From a virus (Duplodnaviria > Caudoviricetes), in the IMG/VR virus record IMGVR_UViG_3300018430_000021, positions 64,001-128,000 of that record: a DNA stretch of 64,000 bases, one strand, 5' to 3'. Below the pieces are notes generated by a model, which worked only from the letters and a program-made list of their open reading frames with translations, did no database searches and was not told where the DNA came from. Of the stretch, positions 39,216 to 44,835 are shown in pieces. The first letter of the stretch is position 1. Each line of letters begins with the position of its first letter. Made by a program: the position numbers and the translations under genes.

Positions 39216-39929
39216 TTAGAAATCTGTCGGTATTTTAGACAGAGCGTAAGCGCCGTTATCGAACGACTTTTTCTGCGGGACAATCTTAAGATTTCCGTTA
39301 GGTTCACGCTTGTTAATATGATATGTCCAGATGTCTGAGTGGAATGTAAGTTTACATTTCACTACCTCTTCGCTATTATAATCCAAATCGGATTCAAAGT
39401 CAAGGTTCTTAAGGACACAGTTTTCAAAATGGAATTCGCCGTTGAAATTACTGTTCTGGTTGGACTCGCCAGTTTTATCCTTCATCATTACTATGATTTT
39501 ATCGATAGTAACATAATCCTTTGTACCTACACGAGACGAATAGATTTCATGTTCCGGGTGAACTGGATAAATCGTAGACTTATTGTAACTTACACCGTCT
39601 GAAGCCATCAAGTCCTTAAGACAACGGGCATTAATCTGGGCGATATTATATAACTGGTTATTATCGCTCGGTTCTGCACGAACGGTAAATCTGAAACTAA
39701 TGTCTGTTCCATAGTTTCTTACAATCGGGAAAGTCTTTTCAGAACCGAAATACTTTTTTGTAACGGTGACAGTTTCAAACTTCGGTAATGTAGCGGTTTC
39801 AGCTATAAGGTGGTCGTCGTCAATCTTTGACGTACCGGTTGTCTTATAGAAAAATACATGGAATAACCAGCCTGGTTGCGGATCAGACATGTTAAAAAAG
39901 TTTTCGTTAATAAAAATACTGTTTGGCAT
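39216..39929 (-). CDS. tail tube-like protein (gp19 family)
   Basis: LFHVFF..ETATLP..YFG..P; F.NC..LDY..TF.SD.W. Confidence 0.6.
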   Translation of the reverse strand: MPNSIFINENFFNMSDPQPGWLFHVFFYKTTGTSKIDDDHLIAETATLPKFETVTVTKKYFGSEKTFPIVRNYGTDISFRFTVRAEPSDNNQLYNIAQINARCLKDLMASDGVSYNKSTIYPVHPEHEIYSSRVGTKDYVTIDKIIVMMKDKTGESNQNSNFNGEFHFENCVLKNLDFESDLDYNSEEVVKCKLTFHSDIWTYHINKREPNGNLKIVPQKKSFDNGAYALSKIPTDF

Positions 39930-39938
39930 AAGTTATTC

Positions 39939-40694
39939 CTAAAATGTTCTATCATTATACTTCGTATTGAAATCCATCCAGTTATACGTAAATATCGCAT
40001 CACGTTGAATAGTATCATCGCTTTCATAACTATATGAAATACTTGGAATAGATACTAGTTTACATTCGTAGAACTTGTATTGCTTGAAATAATCTCCCTT
40101 GTCACCGTCGTTAAGTCCCATAGAATTTGTAGACGGATCTCTATACTGGTTGAATATCTTGACTGAGATTATTCCTGGTTTCGTGTTTATATTCGAAATA
40201 TTTGAACTACCGTTTGCCTGAGGAGTAAGTGTATCTCCTTTTACTCGTGTATCTGTACCGTAAGAATATGCAGCTGCATTGTTAGGTATCGAATTCGAAG
40301 TATAGTAGAACTTGTTTAACGCTTGTATATGATAAATCTTTTCAAGAATGGTAGTTACTCTATATAAACTGTCTTCATTGAATTTAAACGTGATTGTACC
40401 TGAATTTTCTGCACGTGTTGGAATCTTGAAATTTAAACCACCATAATATAAGTCTGCCGTATTTATCTTTCTATCGGGTATACTTACTGAAACTACTGCT
40501 TTATTCAATAGTTCCATATCGTTTTCTGTTATTAATGAGTTATTATCACTCTTGAAATTCATAAAATCATTGAAGACTGCTTTAAAAGTCCAGCCTAAAG
40601 CAGGTGGTTGATTATAAAAATCATTATCCCAGATAGATCTTAGATTTCCACGAGTTGGTCTACCCATTTTTGTAGTTAAATCGTATACACCCAT
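39939..40694 (-). CDS. tail tube-like protein (gp19 family)
   Basis: VSVSIP..L.YGG..IP..G.ITF.F.ED; YKFY.C..SY..FTYNW. Confidence 0.65.
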   Translation of the reverse strand: MGVYDLTTKMGRPTRGNLRSIWDNDFYNQPPALGWTFKAVFNDFMNFKSDNNSLITENDMELLNKAVVSVSIPDRKINTADLYYGGLNFKIPTRAENSGTITFKFNEDSLYRVTTILEKIYHIQALNKFYYTSNSIPNNAAAYSYGTDTRVKGDTLTPQANGSSNISNINTKPGIISVKIFNQYRDPSTNSMGLNDGDKGDYFKQYKFYECKLVSIPSISYSYESDDTIQRDAIFTYNWMDFNTKYNDRTF

Positions 40695-40706
40695 ATCTAT
40701 ATTTAT

Positions 40707-41136
40707 AAAACATCAGTTAACGGGCGCAAGCGCCCACAGCTGGCAAGCCAGCGTTTTATTGGCGCTATGCGCCACATCAGGCGTTGCCTGGATGTTTTAT
40801 TTTTTAAATCTTTTAAATTTTTTATACAGTAAGCCTTAGCGAGGTTTCTGTACTTCTTACAGTAAGAGGATTTACGTATTGACATATCGGGCTGGTCATC
40901 CTGTACTCCGAGCTACATTCAATACAACCGATGGCGGCTATATGTATTTAGTGCTATAAATACTTCAGTGGTGGAACGTTATCGGTTACGGCCATTAGCT
41001 TCTAACTGGTCATGACTTCTGCCCGATCATAGTGTAGGATATACACCTTATAATCCTAAACGGCCAAAGACATTGCCGATACACTCATTGGATTGACGTT
41101 CGTTACTGTGACTTTGGTCTTCTATGTAAAAATTTT
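40707..41136 (-). ncRNA. candidate structured non-coding RNA or structured DNA element
   Basis: Minus-strand TTTACG-N17-TATATT promoter (41171-41143) with no credible ORF; nested long-range stems and four tandem GC hairpins. Confidence 0.55.
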
Positions 41137-41213
41137 TATTCAAATATAAGTAAAATTTTTTATTGCGTAAATTAAAAATAACGTTTATATTTGAATTTTT
41201 TATAAAAAAGAAT

Positions 41214-41240
41214 AAAACCTGGAAGTTTTTCCAGGTTTTT
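41214..41240 (-). terminator. terminator after gp13
   Basis: aaaacctggaa-gttt-ttccaggtttt. Confidence 0.75.
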
Positions 41241-41265
41241 TCTATATTTGGATATATATTCAGAA

Positions 41266-42243
41266 TTACGAGATCCAGAATTCTCCGTTCGGGGATTCGA
41301 GACGGATATTTTCGAGGCAGTAATCGTATTCTTCCTTATAGCTGGCATAGAGCGAATCACCGTTCAACTGACCACCGCCGGCGATAGTCAAAGTATATTT
41401 TCGGAGTGCATTTGCCCAGACCATGCCTGCACGAGCGACAACCATCTTACGGAACATAATATCGTTGAAAATCTTTACAGACTTCTGTTTTTTATAGACT
41501 TCCATAATTCCCTTACAAGGGTGACGCGGAGTAGGCCAAACTGAAAGTTCCTTTTCTTTCTCGTTGTATCGTACCTGATAAGATTCACCGAAATCCATCT
41601 TGGCCTGTTCGAGCCACTGAAGTGCAGCATTCCAGCTTCCGAGAACATCGCCGAAACCAGCACTGTTACCGTAACAGGAACCGCGGAAAATAGATGAAGC
41701 ATTCATACTCATTACAGAATCGTAAAGTGCATTGTGCGGGAGCGTGAAAAGTTCGTTAATGTCGCCGAGCCAGTTGGCCGTAGCGAAGTCAACGACGGAT
41801 TCCAATTCCTGACAAATCTTATAATGTGTACATCCAGGAATAAGGTCAAGAACCAAGTAATCACGATAGTTACCCTGACGGAAATAATATCTTTGGATGT
41901 AACGGATGCAGTCACCGATGATATAGTTTAACTGTTCATCTGAAATTTCAACGCAAATAACCGGACTACCGAGCATGAGCTTGATGTAGTTTCGAAGCAT
42001 TGCGATATTCTGAATAGTAGTAGCTTCCAAAACTGGGTCATTCTGACATGGACCAGGATAAGGAGGCATAGGCACCGAACCGGTATGTGCGTTCGGTGGC
42101 GGAACCGGTCTTCCAGAAGGAGGCATCGGTGGAGGTGGAGGAGGCATTGGACCAGGACCCGGTTTCGGAGACCAAGGGAAATTTGGAGGTGGAACCTGGA
42201 TAGGATCGCCAATAAAGCCTTCAGTATTCATTTCTTCATTCAT
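41266..42243 (-). CDS. gp13: neck protein gp13-like, with Pro-rich N-terminal extension (start MNEEM)
   Basis: LRNYIKLMLGSPVICVEISDEQL; W..AL.KY..L.GG..LNG..Y..E; TATAAATA-N4-ATG. Confidence 0.9.
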   Translation of the reverse strand: MNEEMNTEGFIGDPIQVPPPNFPWSPKPGPGPMPPPPPPMPPSGRPVPPPNAHTGSVPMPPYPGPCQNDPVLEATTIQNIAMLRNYIKLMLGSPVICVEISDEQLNYIIGDCIRYIQRYYFRQGNYRDYLVLDLIPGCTHYKICQELESVVDFATANWLGDINELFTLPHNALYDSVMSMNASSIFRGSCYGNSAGFGDVLGSWNAALQWLEQAKMDFGESYQVRYNEKEKELSVWPTPRHPCKGIMEVYKKQKSVKIFNDIMFRKMVVARAGMVWANALRKYTLTIAGGGQLNGDSLYASYKEEYDYCLENIRLESPNGEFWIS

Positions 42244-42288
42244 ACTATATTTATAGAAACTGACCCTAAAGGCTGTTATAAATATAGC

Positions 42289-44835
42289 ATGGCTGAAGAA
42301 AAACAAATGAATAGCATCGAATATTACGTTCGAGAACATAAAAGATTAAATCCTGAACCGTATAAAACCAGCACATTTCCTGGTTTTTATGATGAGTCAG
42401 TTCTTAAAACTAAGGAAAAGACAAGTTCACCGTTAAATATTCCGGATGACGCATTACAGGATGAAAATGACGCGACCACTGAAAAAGGATGGATTGCGCC
42501 TTATGATTTTTATAAGAATAACAGCCATACAGTAAATGATGATATTGACCCGAATAACGGTTTTATTCAGGCTAAAGATACAACGACTGATAACGTTTTT
42601 AAATATAAGGATTTATATTGGTGGTGTGAAGATTTACATAACTGGTGTGTTTATAAGTCTGACTGTGTAAACTATCAGTATCTTAATTCTTTTTATCTTC
42701 ATGTCTGGAATGGTTTGGATAACTGGGTTCCGGCAACTTATTCTTTCAGAGTATTCCCAAATCAAAAGTTTGCACCGTTACAGAATAAAATTATAAATGC
42801 TAAACTTGACCGTGGTGAATATATTGTAATGCACCGTGGTGCATTGAAAAATACTCCGAATAACTGGCTTTTTAGTAATGGTCCATTGACTATTAACCAT
42901 GCTTTTGTACTTAAAAAGGCCGATAGATATAGTGTAAATTCAGAAAATAATTTCCAGGCAATACGATGGTCATCGCCTAAACATATTGTTAATACTACAG
43001 AATATAGCCAGGCAGATGATTTGATGAAAATATCTGTTGCGGGTAATACTTTCTATGTTGATTTTTATATTCGTGACGAATTCGCTAGAACTGACTCTAT
43101 GTGGGTCATGTTCACTACTGATGCGAATAATAAGGAAATTCCAGCTCATTCTCCATTCTATTCTAACCATCAGTTAAATTGTTGTCATAGAAAATCTTCA
43201 GGAAGCTGTACTTTTAGTTATCCTGTTTGCGAAAATGCTGGCGTAGGTAATGGCGCAGTAGCATACAAGAAAGAAAGTCAGTGTAATAGTTATAATAAGT
43301 ATAGTTCTTCACCGAGAACAATTTATTGGGATAATACAAACAGCGGCAGTTTTGAAAATAAGTTAATAACTGATAGAACAGCATTTGAAAATAAATATGG
43401 TTCTGAAAAATTAAAGACGCCGTTGAATTATCGATTCTGTAAATATAACCATGTGCTTATGTCATCATTGGCTATGGAAAAGATATTTGCAGTTCAGATT
43501 TATACAAGAGACAGTAATGGAAATCTTTCATTAGTACCAAATATCTGGATAAATCAAAATGCGCCGACAGGCGATAGAAGAAGTCTTGGTAATGTTACAA
43601 ATAATCCACCATTGTATATGAGTTATGTCGATATTGCTGAGCTTTTCTTTAAAGGAACAATGGATGGTCCTGTATTATGGTCAATGCCAGCAAATATTGA
43701 TAGTGACAATTCTACAGAAGATTATGACCGTGATATTATTTGGAAACCGAAGAATTATTTATTGATGACTACGTTGTTAAGTATGCTCCAAGAAGCATAC
43801 AATGATGAACATCCAAATAAGTTCTTTGATATGGATATTGAAAAGACAAAGAAATGGTATACGAATACGGTAGATACCATTTCGACAGAATCCATGTATT
43901 TTACGGTTTTATACCAACCAGATTCTAATAAAAATGTAGTAGTAAGACAGGAATTTTATAAACCGATTGTAGAAGAAAAAAATTTCGGTCATGATCCAAC
44001 TACTACTTATACGTGGGACACTGCTGGTTGGGTATATGCTATTCCAGGTGCAAATATTGGTGCAGCATTAGGTGACCTTATTTCTTGGGGAATGTCGTCT
44101 AGTGATAAGAAAAAATATATCAAACCACAGCCAGCAAATTCGGCAGTAATGTACTTCAGTCATGAAGATAATAAGTATACCTTGACAAGTGTAAAGGATT
44201 ATACTACTGTAGTTGGTGATGCCAATGAGAATAATACGAATATACAAGGTTATAGGGCAATGGGTTCTATTGTCGAGAACATGTTGAACAATTTGGCATC
44301 TGGACAAAGAATTGAAAATATTGACTCGATGATAATATACCCTGGCTATAAAGATTTTACTATTACAGTTAAGGAATTATTTAAGCCATCGACTTCTAAT
44401 CTTCGTGAAGGTACTAGTATTTCGAATCCGGCTATATACAGATTACCTACTGGCGATATTGCCTTGTGTTCTCAGTTGCATTGGGGCGGTGAACAACGTA
44501 TAATTGGTGGTCCTGGCAATTTGAATCTTCCTAATCCGGTTCAGGATAGTGTTGACAATGCTGATAAGTTTATCAATAAGCAATGCCAGCTTTATTTTGG
44601 AAACGGTAATAAGAAGACTATTAATGAACATTGGCTTAAGGAATATAATACGGAACTTGATTATTCAAGTAAAGATTTCGGTATTGTTGAAAATCAGGCA
44701 CTTCAGTCAGGCTTCGTTTTTGAACAAATAAATAATAATAATACTGATAAGTTTAAATTGACATTATCTACATATAGACCAGTTGTTATTACGAGCGTAT
44801 CTGGCGAAAATGTGGATGTCGCAAAGAAGTGGTAA
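42289..44835 (+). CDS. large virion structural protein (start MAEEK)
   Basis: TATAAATA-N4-ATG; 848-aa N/Y/W-rich ORF in the structural cluster. Confidence 0.7.
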   Translation: MAEEKQMNSIEYYVREHKRLNPEPYKTSTFPGFYDESVLKTKEKTSSPLNIPDDALQDENDATTEKGWIAPYDFYKNNSHTVNDDIDPNNGFIQAKDTTTDNVFKYKDLYWWCEDLHNWCVYKSDCVNYQYLNSFYLHVWNGLDNWVPATYSFRVFPNQKFAPLQNKIINAKLDRGEYIVMHRGALKNTPNNWLFSNGPLTINHAFVLKKADRYSVNSENNFQAIRWSSPKHIVNTTEYSQADDLMKISVAGNTFYVDFYIRDEFARTDSMWVMFTTDANNKEIPAHSPFYSNHQLNCCHRKSSGSCTFSYPVCENAGVGNGAVAYKKESQCNSYNKYSSSPRTIYWDNTNSGSFENKLITDRTAFENKYGSEKLKTPLNYRFCKYNHVLMSSLAMEKIFAVQIYTRDSNGNLSLVPNIWINQNAPTGDRRSLGNVTNNPPLYMSYVDIAELFFKGTMDGPVLWSMPANIDSDNSTEDYDRDIIWKPKNYLLMTTLLSMLQEAYNDEHPNKFFDMDIEKTKKWYTNTVDTISTESMYFTVLYQPDSNKNVVVRQEFYKPIVEEKNFGHDPTTTYTWDTAGWVYAIPGANIGAALGDLISWGMSSSDKKKYIKPQPANSAVMYFSHEDNKYTLTSVKDYTTVVGDANENNTNIQGYRAMGSIVENMLNNLASGQRIENIDSMIIYPGYKDFTITVKELFKPSTSNLREGTSISNPAIYRLPTGDIALCSQLHWGGEQRIIGGPGNLNLPNPVQDSVDNADKFINKQCQLYFGNGNKKTINEHWLKEYNTELDYSSKDFGIVENQALQSGFVFEQINNNNTDKFKLTLSTYRPVVITSVSGENVDVAKKW

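What the first reader, a model, noticed from the sequence alone, without database searches (positions are those of the whole stretch)
40860..41171. Promoter-driven, nested-stem non-coding element inside the structural cluster (candidate novel ncRNA)
Seen: after the gp13 terminator, a consensus early promoter on the minus strand (TTTACG 41171-41166, N17, TATATT 41148-41143) fires into a ~430-nt region without a credible ORF. Nested pairings: atcgggc 40886-92 with gcccgat 41021-27; gtcat 40895-99 with atgac 41012-16; aaccgat 40926-32 with atcggtt 40981-87; gtattta 40944-50 with taaatac 40957-63; taggat 41035-40 with atccta 41053-58. One stem extends by a U-G pair only on the minus strand. A + strand TATAAATA (40955-62) sits in a hairpin and could make a late antisense RNA. 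It does not match tRNA or tmRNA by eye. Inference: a structured regulatory RNA or an R-loop-type replication origin transcript.
Basis: partly seen in the sequence, partly recalled or inferred. Interest (0 to 1): 0.7.

Follow-up and report, generated by a model that had tools for sequence, protein, structure and literature searches.

The report
Enlarged cow-rumen-2 RNA of giant phage
The gene-free gap between the neck and tail-tube genes of this giant T4-like phage holds a real gene for a folded non-coding RNA; its centre is the catalogued but unexplained 'cow-rumen-2' motif, which is only about a third of a larger knotted RNA that such phages carry in up to four copies.

Summary
The element is real, but its core is not new. 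Window 40863-40969 (minus strand) matches Rfam RF02947, cow-rumen-2, at 89.9 bits (cut-off 66).

In 87 copies from rumen and gut phage contigs, about 170 nt upstream and 40-90 nt downstream of that motif are conserved too. The RNA is therefore about 310 nt long (41135 to 40825). With a lineage-specific four-hairpin module it may reach 430 nt.

On 54 sequences my model is 90% paired, against 73% in shuffles. 44 of its 67 pairs change on both sides, and one 3-bp pseudoknot is always paired. The three outer "nested" stems show no covariation; their strands belong to other, covarying helices.

A -10-like box sits at a near-constant distance in nearly all main-type copies. The -35 hexamer is present in about half. 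The plus-strand late-promoter octamer lies in a hairpin whose sequence varies between lineages.

I found no support for an origin: GC-skew extremes lie elsewhere. Two complete phages of about 420 kb hold four copies each.

The function is unknown. My best guess is a free-standing, trans-acting folded RNA.

This scan has found the same enlarged RNA many times on other DNA.

The parts
41214..41239 (.). Two-way intrinsic terminator closing the upstream neck (head-tail adaptor) gene 41266-42339. It marks the RNA as a separate transcription unit.
   Evidence: 11-bp stem followed by a T-run on both strands; the gene matches the head-tail adaptor family. By my reading, many homologous loci also show a hairpin with a T-run just before the promoter box.
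41166..41171 (-).
   Evidence: part of a 9-of-12 promoter-like match; a comparable hexamer at the right spacing occurs in only 26 of 54 homologues.
It is the conserved part of the promoter.
   Evidence: a conserved block in the alignment upstream of the RNA; in the copies that match the promoter pattern, the -10 hexamer ends 45-47 nt before the first hairpin loop in most, and 52 nt before it in the window lineage.
40825..41135 (-). Estimated body of the RNA, about 310 nt. The 5' end is inferred from the promoter and the 3' end from the last conserved block. Neither end has been mapped.
   Evidence: conservation on both sides of the Rfam match; covariation across the whole body.
41064..41117 (-). 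5' domain. An outer helix (41109-41117 with 41064-41072) encloses a small hairpin (41095-41099 with 41081-41086) whose 8-nt loop (41087-41094) is nearly invariant.
   Evidence: helix 1 is 95% paired with 6 of 9 pairs changed on both sides; helix 2 is 98% paired. The window's version of the outer helix differs in sequence from most others yet still pairs.
40977..41062 (-). Three-way junction. The closing helix is 41059-41062 with 40977-40980. The other arm is 41023-41027 with 40981-40985 and carries a lineage-specific inserted hairpin, 41002-41009 with 40992-40998.
   Evidence: helices 3, 4 and 5, with 4 of 5, 7 of 8 and 5 of 5 pairs changed on both sides. MAFFT misplaces the window's row in the second arm, so I placed the window's pairs by reading.
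40863..40969 (-). Match to Rfam RF02947 (cow-rumen-2).
   Evidence: 89.9 bits against a cut-off of 66, E 5e-17, model positions 1-106; helices 7, 9 and 10 have every pair changed on both sides and are 96-100% paired.
40892..40968 (-). Pseudoknot 1. Positions 40966-40968, just 5' of the Rfam hairpin, pair with 40892-40894 inside the core.
   Evidence: helix 6: 100% of cells paired, with 4 and 3 pair types at the two variable pairs.
40842..40902 (-). Candidate pseudoknot 2. Core positions 40900-40902 pair with 40842-40844. In most homologues the partner is the loop of a 3' hairpin.
   Evidence: helix 11: the three central pairs are always paired (51 of 51 sequences each). The core side is invariant, so there is no covariation; the only changes keep G-U pairing.
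40825..40866 (-). 3' domain. An exact 9-nt direct repeat (40858-40866 and 40825-40833) flanks a 5-nt segment (40848-40852) that is complementary to both copies. A nearly invariant 3' motif lies at 40831-40837.
   Evidence: the repeat, with 33-nt spacing. By my estimate the chance expectation in 61 nt is about 0.005. Repeats of other sequence sit at the same place in L010, L013 and L045.
40705..40800 (-). Lineage-specific module of four GC-rich hairpins (40722-40735, 40739-40752, 40760-40774, 40778-40790) closed by a 10-bp outer stem (40791-40800 with 40705-40714). It may be the 3' extension or the end of the transcript.
   Evidence: 4 of the 12 GC-rich perfect hairpins in the 64-kb window lie here; the consensus fold, with two compensatory changes in the second hairpin among close relatives.
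40692..40707 (-). T4-type late-promoter octamer (40700-40707) and the start codon of the downstream tail-tube-like gene (40692-40694).
   Evidence: Read; the ORF 39939-40694 matches a tail-tube family. Most homologous loci likewise show such an octamer between the RNA and the next gene.

Best explanation
The gap holds a free-standing gene for a compactly folded non-coding RNA of about 310 nt, or about 430 nt if the four-hairpin module belongs to it. The RNA is read on the minus strand from a conserved -10-type promoter that follows the neck gene's terminator.

It is a member of the cow-rumen-2 family, but the catalogued 106-nt motif is only its centre. The whole RNA has:
- a 5' domain, made of a helix with a conserved-loop hairpin and a three-way junction;
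- the cow-rumen-2 core, tied to both flanks by two pseudoknots;
- a 3' domain with lineage-specific direct repeats that allow two mutually exclusive helices.

Inferred, not shown: it acts in trans as a folded RNA whose invariant knotted core binds a partner (a protein, a small ligand or another nucleic acid), rather than working by simple antisense pairing or as a leader. Its biological role is unknown.
For: Identity: the Rfam match is full length and above threshold. All 39 other loci scanned with the Rfam library also score above threshold.

Larger RNA: both flanks are conserved in 87 copies.

Fold: 90.3% of cells are paired against 73.4% in shuffles. 44 of 67 pairs change on both sides. The covariation score is 0.466 against 0.159 (0 of 500 shuffles reach it), and slid controls give at most 0.085. 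Pseudoknot 1 is paired in every sequence, with 3-4 pair types at its two variable pairs.

Strand: the covariance-model match is on the minus strand only, and one pair of the 5' domain is a U-G wobble in 39 of 51 sequences.

Separate gene:
- An upstream terminator and a conserved -10-like box precede it.
- The next gene lies on the opposite strand in 6 of 34 representative loci.
- By my reading, the RNA in the L016 group is followed by a hairpin and T-run.
- By my reading, the next gene usually has its own late-promoter octamer.
- The neighbouring genes differ between loci: tail tube, baseplate hub, helicase with DHH phosphoesterase, SbcC-like nuclease, RNA ligase.

Partner-binding core: about 55 invariant columns lie mostly in joiners and loops.

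Distribution: complete phages of 415,750 and 424,163 bp hold four diverged copies each. In 185,579 species genomes the motif was found only on six stretches of MAG contigs.
Against: - There are no expression data, and neither end of the RNA has been mapped.
- No canonical terminator follows the RNA in the window, so read-through into the tail-tube gene is possible.
- The single-sequence fold is unremarkable (z -1.29), and the opposite strand folds better.
- No conserved neighbouring protein gene points to a partner.
- The 3' alternative helices and the same-strand downstream gene in 28 of 34 loci would also fit a cis-acting switch.
- Pseudoknot 2 and the long-range contacts of the invariant 3' motif rest on invariant bases only.
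Confidence: 0.6

Rival explanations
1. The RNA is a cis-acting sensor or leader, riboswitch-like. The conserved knotted part is an aptamer. The variable 3' domain, with its mutually exclusive helices, is an expression platform that decides whether early transcripts continue into the downstream, mostly late, genes.
For: - The next gene is on the same strand in 28 of 34 representative loci.
- Lineage-specific direct repeats flank a segment complementary to both copies, which gives two exclusive helices.
- Each genome holds several diverged copies that share a core but differ in their peripheries and neighbours, as riboswitch classes do.
- No terminator follows the RNA in the window.
Against: - The downstream gene is on the opposite strand in 6 of 34 loci, and by my reading the L016-group RNA ends at a hairpin with a T-run.
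- In most loci a late-promoter octamer and 60-150 nt separate the RNA from the next start codon, so the late mRNA would lack the element.
- The downstream genes share no function.
Confidence: 0.17
2. The transcript is the primer of a T4-type R-loop replication origin. A host-type promoter fires inside a late-gene region, and the RNA stays hybridised to the DNA and primes the leading strand.
For: - The promoter-like element is not of the late type, yet it sits inside a late structural cluster.
- Each giant genome has several dispersed copies.
- From my own knowledge of phage T4, its origins E and F lie near the baseplate-hub gene and beside uvsY.
Against: - Strong selection on RNA-RNA pairing, two pseudoknots and about 55 invariant mostly unpaired bases are not needed for a primer.
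- Cumulative GC-skew extremes lie at 185 kb in the window's genome and at 161 and 343 kb in the complete 415-kb relative. The RNA copies lie at 104.9 kb, and at 51, 113, 273 and 359 kb. T4-type origins may leave no skew, so this is weak evidence.
Confidence: 0.06
3. There is no functional RNA here. The gap is a spacer whose complementarities arise by chance, or it encodes a small protein.
For: The promoter match alone is at chance level. The fold energy of the RNA strand is within the range of shuffles.
Against: - The covariance-model match has E 5e-17.
- There is massive covariation.
- No ORF exceeds 60 aa, and by my reading no ORF inside the RNA recurs across lineages.
Confidence: 0.01

Closest known systems
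cow-rumen-2 RNA motif (Rfam RF02947, typed 'Gene; sRNA'). It is listed in the Rfam 15 paper, PMC11701678. To my recollection it comes from the 224-motif survey of Weinberg et al. 2017, PMC5737381, whose supplement is not held here.
   Same: The match is full length and above threshold. It has the same hairpin, invariant joiner and long stem with an inner stem, and the same rumen habitat.
   Different: The catalogued model covers 106 nt. The conserved RNA is about three times longer and has a 5' domain, two pseudoknots reaching outside the model and a 3' domain with repeats. It is a phage gene present in up to four copies. The window's lineage has a shortened 3' domain, an extra hairpin in the junction and a four-hairpin tail.
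GOLLD and ROOL, large ornate RNAs of phages and prophages (ROOL is described in PMC5737381; cryo-EM cages in bioRxiv 10.1101/2024.12.08.627333)
   Same: These too are large RNAs of unknown function, heavily constrained in structure, free-standing and borne by phages. ROOL was also first found in cow rumen.
   Different: No Rfam model of either matches here. This RNA is about half their size or less. No tRNA gene lies in the roughly 5-14 kb held around 33 loci. Nothing here tests whether the RNA forms multimers.
T4 R-loop origins oriF (uvsY) and oriG (gene 34), cited from my own knowledge
   Same: A promoter that is not of the late type fires into non-coding or late-gene DNA, and each genome has several copies.
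   Different: As far as I know, T4 origin transcripts have no conserved fold. Here the RNA fold is what is conserved. There is no GC-skew signal at the copies.

Membership tests
cow-rumen-2 (Rfam RF02947) | Covariance-model score at or above the curated gathering score (66 bits) over the whole model | tested here: met
   89.9 bits, E 5e-17, model positions 1-106 of 106, minus strand; same result on the whole genome.
cow-rumen-2 (Rfam RF02947) | The model's helices are kept by compensatory changes | tested here: met
   helices 7, 9 and 10 have every pair changed on both sides and are 96-100% paired in 51 distinct sequences.
cow-rumen-2 (Rfam RF02947) | Found in rumen or gut metagenomes | tested here: met
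   homologues lie on IMG/VR viral contigs and on metagenome contigs; the MAG records that hold it are titled goat duodenum and goat ileum. The window's own record is a virus record of 291 kb.
RNase P RNA, tmRNA, group I intron and the other catalogued RNA families of Rfam | A match to the family's covariance model | tested here: not met
   a permissive scan of 361 nt (E up to 10) lists only cow-rumen-2 and two chance-level hits. ARAGORN finds no tRNA or tmRNA in the window. My early impression of RNase P-like end motifs was therefore dropped.
GOLLD/ROOL-type ornate phage RNAs | A match to their models; frequent tRNA neighbours (from my own knowledge) | tested here: not met
   no such hits; no tRNA in the DNA held around 33 loci.
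Riboswitch or cis-acting leader | Always upstream of the controlled gene on the same strand, with a terminator or a start-site-masking helix in the platform | tested here: not met
   the downstream gene is on the opposite strand in 6 of 34 loci; a late-promoter octamer usually lies between the RNA and the next gene. The alternative 3' helices keep the idea alive for some copies.
T4-type R-loop origin | A middle-mode promoter with its activator box, plus a downstream DNA-unwinding element; the origin is used in vivo | not tested
   I did not search for the activator box or an unwinding element, and origin use cannot be tested with these tools. The only related test was GC skew, which shows no association and is weak evidence.

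The most novel reading that the evidence does not exclude
The enlarged cow-rumen-2 RNA is a new class of large functional phage RNA: either a ligand- or protein-sensing switch or a ribozyme. Giant T4-like phages would keep four anciently diverged paralogues, each placed at a different gene block. The invariant doubly knotted core would do the chemistry or the sensing, and the lineage-specific repeated 3' segments would flip between two helices as the output.
Probability: 0.15. Interest if true: 0.8.

Novelty: new member of a known kind. Interest (0 to 1): 0.5.

Why it matters
Large RNAs with many invariant unpaired bases and pseudoknots have often turned out to be ribozymes, riboswitches or unusual assemblies. 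This one is confined to giant phages of the ruminant gut and is kept in four diverged copies per genome, yet no function is known for it.

For annotation, the result removes a "novel ncRNA" claim and replaces it with a named family. It also shows that the catalogued model covers only about a third of the molecule. Experiments on the 106-nt motif alone would therefore probably miss the native fold, because both pseudoknots reach outside it.

Tried and rejected
- RNase P RNA. The conserved 5' and 3' end motifs reminded me of the helix that closes the catalytic core of RNase P. A permissive Rfam scan shows no such hit, no helices lie upstream of the 5' motif, and most of the 3' motif forms the 3' strand of a local hairpin in most lineages.
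- tmRNA or tRNA-like RNA. ARAGORN finds none.
- Group I intron. There is no model hit and no exon context.
- Similarity to deposited phage genomes. blastn of 581 nt found nothing.
- A terminal helix joining the extreme 5' block to the 3' tail. It pairs in some lineages and not in others by eye, so I do not claim it.
They show no covariation.
- Origin test by GC skew. It shows no association.
- Neighbour test for a partner protein. The contexts differ.
- An automatic search for the second junction arm gave noise and was not used.
I therefore read the coordinates in this report by hand.
- The supplement of PMC5737381 is not held, so I could not check what its authors wrote about this motif.

Full report

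Every coordinate in the finding checks out against the sequence. That covers the two promoter hexamers on the minus strand, the five complementary pairs and the plus-strand late-promoter octamer at 40955-40962.

The stretch 40703-41265 has no ORF above 60 aa. It lies between a gene matching the head-tail adaptor (neck) family, 41266-42339, and two genes matching tail-tube families, 39939-40694 and 39216-39929, all on the minus strand. A strong two-way terminator at 41214-41239 closes the neck gene.

- The promoter match scores 9 of 12, and such matches are as frequent in shuffled sequence (10 found, 9.6 expected).
- The minimum-energy fold of the RNA strand is within the range of shuffles (z -1.29), and the other strand folds better (z -2.82).

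So neither the promoter nor thermodynamics establishes the element. Comparative data do.

WHAT IT IS

A scan against Rfam gives one strong hit: RF02947, cow-rumen-2, at 40863-40969 on the minus strand. It scores 89.9 bits against a curated cut-off of 66, with E 5e-17, and covers the whole 106-position model. It is the only significant copy in the 291-kb virus record that holds the window.

The family is catalogued as a small RNA of unknown function. The only papers in the held library that name it are the two versions of the Rfam 15 paper, where it appears in a table of families with improved structures. The supplement of the 2017 survey from which I believe it comes is not held.

HOMOLOGUES

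I searched with patterns built from the invariant core.
- The viral collection gave 27 loci.
- The metagenome collection gave 120 stretches.
- After I removed chance hits in GC-rich DNA, 87 copies remained. Of these, 84 had full flanks and 67 were distinct.
- All 39 loci that I scanned with the Rfam library score above the family cut-off.
- In one genome for each of 185,579 bacterial and archaeal species, the motif occurs on only six stretches. All lie on MAG contigs, and two contigs of 173 and 191 kb carry two copies each. I suspect these are phage contigs that were binned wrongly, but I did not check.

Two complete phage genomes with terminal repeats, of 415,750 and 424,163 bp, hold four copies each.

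THE RNA IS LARGER THAN THE CATALOGUED MOTIF

Seen in RNA sense, about 170 nt upstream and 40-90 nt downstream of the Rfam match are conserved between lineages that share only about 59% column identity. I reached this reading before I looked at earlier notes of this scan. Those notes say the same about other genomes.

On an alignment of 54 sequences with the commoner type of 5' domain, I wrote down a structure and counted its pairs.
- 90.3% of cells are paired, against 73.4% in shuffles.
- 44 of 67 pairs change on both sides.
- The covariation score is 0.466 against 0.159, reached by 0 of 500 shuffles.
- Sliding the partners by one to three columns drops pairing to 33-42% and the score to at most 0.085.

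In window coordinates the supported elements are as follows.
- A 5' helix, 41109-41117 with 41064-41072. Its sequence in the window differs from most relatives yet still pairs.
- Inside that helix, a small hairpin with a nearly invariant 8-nt loop (41087-41094).
- A three-way junction closed by 41059-41062 with 40977-40980.
  - The other arm is 41023-41027 with 40981-40985. In this lineage it carries an extra hairpin, 41002-41009 with 40992-40998.
- The invariant joiner, 40932-40939.
- The long stem, 40919-40925 with 40876-40882.
- An inner stem, 40908-40911 with 40887-40890.
- An invariant 13-nt core, 40894-40906.

There are two long-range contacts.
- Pseudoknot 1 joins 40966-40968, just upstream of the Rfam hairpin, to 40892-40894 in the core. 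It is paired in every sequence, with four and three pair types at its two variable positions (helix 6).
- Pseudoknot 2 is a candidate. It joins core positions 40900-40902 to 40842-40844, which in most relatives is the loop of a 3' hairpin. Its three central pairs are always paired, but the core side never varies, so covariation cannot support it.

A second type of 5' domain exists in other copies. One of the four copies in the complete 415-kb phage is of that type.

Two of its five stems are the conserved ones. The three outer stems are genuine complementarities in this sequence, and the single-sequence minimum-energy fold uses them, but the family does not support them.
- For 40886-92/41021-27 and 40926-32/40981-87, pairing on the alignment is 71.5% against 70.8% in shuffles, reached by 92 of 500 shuffles.
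- The same strands take part in helices that do covary: the junction arm, the inner stem and pseudoknot 1.
- The arm 41012-16 of the third stem lies in an insert that most relatives lack. By my reading, two of its five bases differ in L011 and one in L023, while its partner lies in the invariant core.

PROMOTER, ENDS AND STRAND

The conserved promoter element is the -10-like box at 41141-41148.
- In most copies that match the promoter pattern, the -10 hexamer ends 45-47 nt before the loop of the first hairpin. In the window's lineage the distance is 52 nt.
- The -35-like hexamer is found at the right spacing in only 26 of 54 copies.
- By my reading, in many of the rest a hairpin with a T-run, which I take to be the upstream gene's terminator, occupies that place. 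That also shows that a new transcription unit starts here.

The minus strand is indicated in three ways: the covariance-model hit is on that strand only, one pair of the 5' domain is a U-G wobble in 39 of 51 sequences, and the promoter faces that way.

The 3' end is not defined. No canonical terminator follows on the minus strand. The last block shared with relatives ends near 40825.

Then comes a module that only the window's close relatives share: four GC-rich hairpins closed by a 10-bp stem (40705-40800). It holds 4 of the 12 GC-rich perfect hairpins in the whole 64-kb window and shows two compensatory changes. It may be the tail or the end of the transcript.

A T4-type late-promoter octamer at 40700-40707 precedes the tail-tube gene, as similar octamers do in most other loci.

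AN UNEXPLAINED FEATURE

In the 3' domain an exact 9-nt direct repeat (40858-40866 and 40825-40833) flanks a 5-nt segment (40848-40852) that is complementary to both copies, so two helices exclude each other. By my estimate the chance expectation for such a repeat in 61 nt is about 0.005.

Repeats of quite different sequence sit at the same place in three of five other lineages tested. In L010 there are two repeats, and the order of their second copies is reversed. It could be a switch, a pair of binding sites or an aid to folding.

HOW IT MOST LIKELY WORKS

Shown:
- It is a conserved, multi-domain, pseudoknotted RNA.
- It has its own conserved promoter-like box.
- It occurs in varied gene neighbourhoods: tail tube here; elsewhere baseplate hub, helicase with DHH phosphoesterase, SbcC-like nuclease, lysozyme and RNA ligase.
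- The next gene is on the opposite strand in 6 of 34 representative loci.
- No tRNA gene lies in the DNA held around 33 loci.
- No protein neighbour recurs.
- Complete giant phages hold four diverged copies.

Inferred: it is a free-standing RNA that acts in trans through its invariant knotted core, by binding a protein, a ligand or another nucleic acid. I put the identity and the fold above 0.95, and the trans-acting mode at roughly 0.55.

Rivals:
- A riboswitch-like cis element: 0.17. The alternative 3' helices and the 28 of 34 loci with a same-strand downstream gene favour it. The loci with an opposite-strand downstream gene and the intervening late promoters count against it.
- A T4-type origin primer: 0.06. 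Cumulative GC-skew extremes lie at 185 kb in the window's genome, and at 161 and 343 kb in the complete 415-kb phage. The RNA copies lie at 104.9 kb, and at 51, 113, 273 and 359 kb. This is weak evidence, because T4-type origins may leave no skew.
- Not a functional RNA: about 0.01.

COMPARISON WITH WHAT IS KNOWN, AND VERDICT

By the family's own test this is a member of cow-rumen-2. What the catalogue lacks is two thirds of the molecule and both pseudoknots.

It resembles GOLLD and ROOL in style, as a large, ornate, phage-borne RNA of unknown function. It matches neither model, is smaller, and has no tRNA neighbours.

My early idea that it might be a reduced RNase P RNA failed the model scan and the anatomy.

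The same enlarged RNA has been reported many times by this scan on other genomes. This window therefore adds a lineage with a shortened 3' domain and a four-hairpin tail, not a new kind of RNA.

Noticed in passing
window 40705-40800: Four tandem GC-rich hairpins sit inside a 10-bp closing stem. This is a unique cluster: it holds 4 of the 12 GC-rich perfect hairpins in the 64-kb window. Among close relatives it shows two compensatory changes. On the plus strand two of the hairpins are followed by T-runs and score as terminators, but no plus-strand gene ends there. Another first-stage note (e1-5905257) covers it.
   Followed up: partly
window 40692-40707: The late-promoter octamer ends only five bases before the annotated start codon of the tail-tube-like ORF. 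Either the late mRNA is nearly leaderless or the true start is the second in-frame start codon, nine codons further on.
   Followed up: no
L092:5821-6175 (minus strand): ARAGORN predicts a tmRNA gene with a short tag peptide on a 148-kb metagenome contig that also carries a cow-rumen-2 RNA about 3 kb away. This may be a phage-borne tmRNA.
   Followed up: no
L150, L151, L153, L154 (contigs of 173 and 191 kb): Two MAGs labelled Methanobrevibacter hold long contigs with two cow-rumen-2 copies each. These are probably giant-phage contigs binned into archaeal genomes by their low GC content.
   Followed up: no
L169:10294-11460 (complete 415-kb phage, about 270.3-271.5 kb): A homologue of the T4 RNA ligase that doubles as tail-fibre attachment factor lies about 1.5 kb downstream of one RNA copy, after a lysozyme-like gene. 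This is one locus only and may be chance.
   Followed up: no
window 42085-42339: A 916-aa plus-strand ORF as listed overlaps the 5' end of the minus-strand neck gene by about 250 nt. Its true start is probably further downstream. The neck protein has a proline-rich N-terminal stretch.
   Followed up: no
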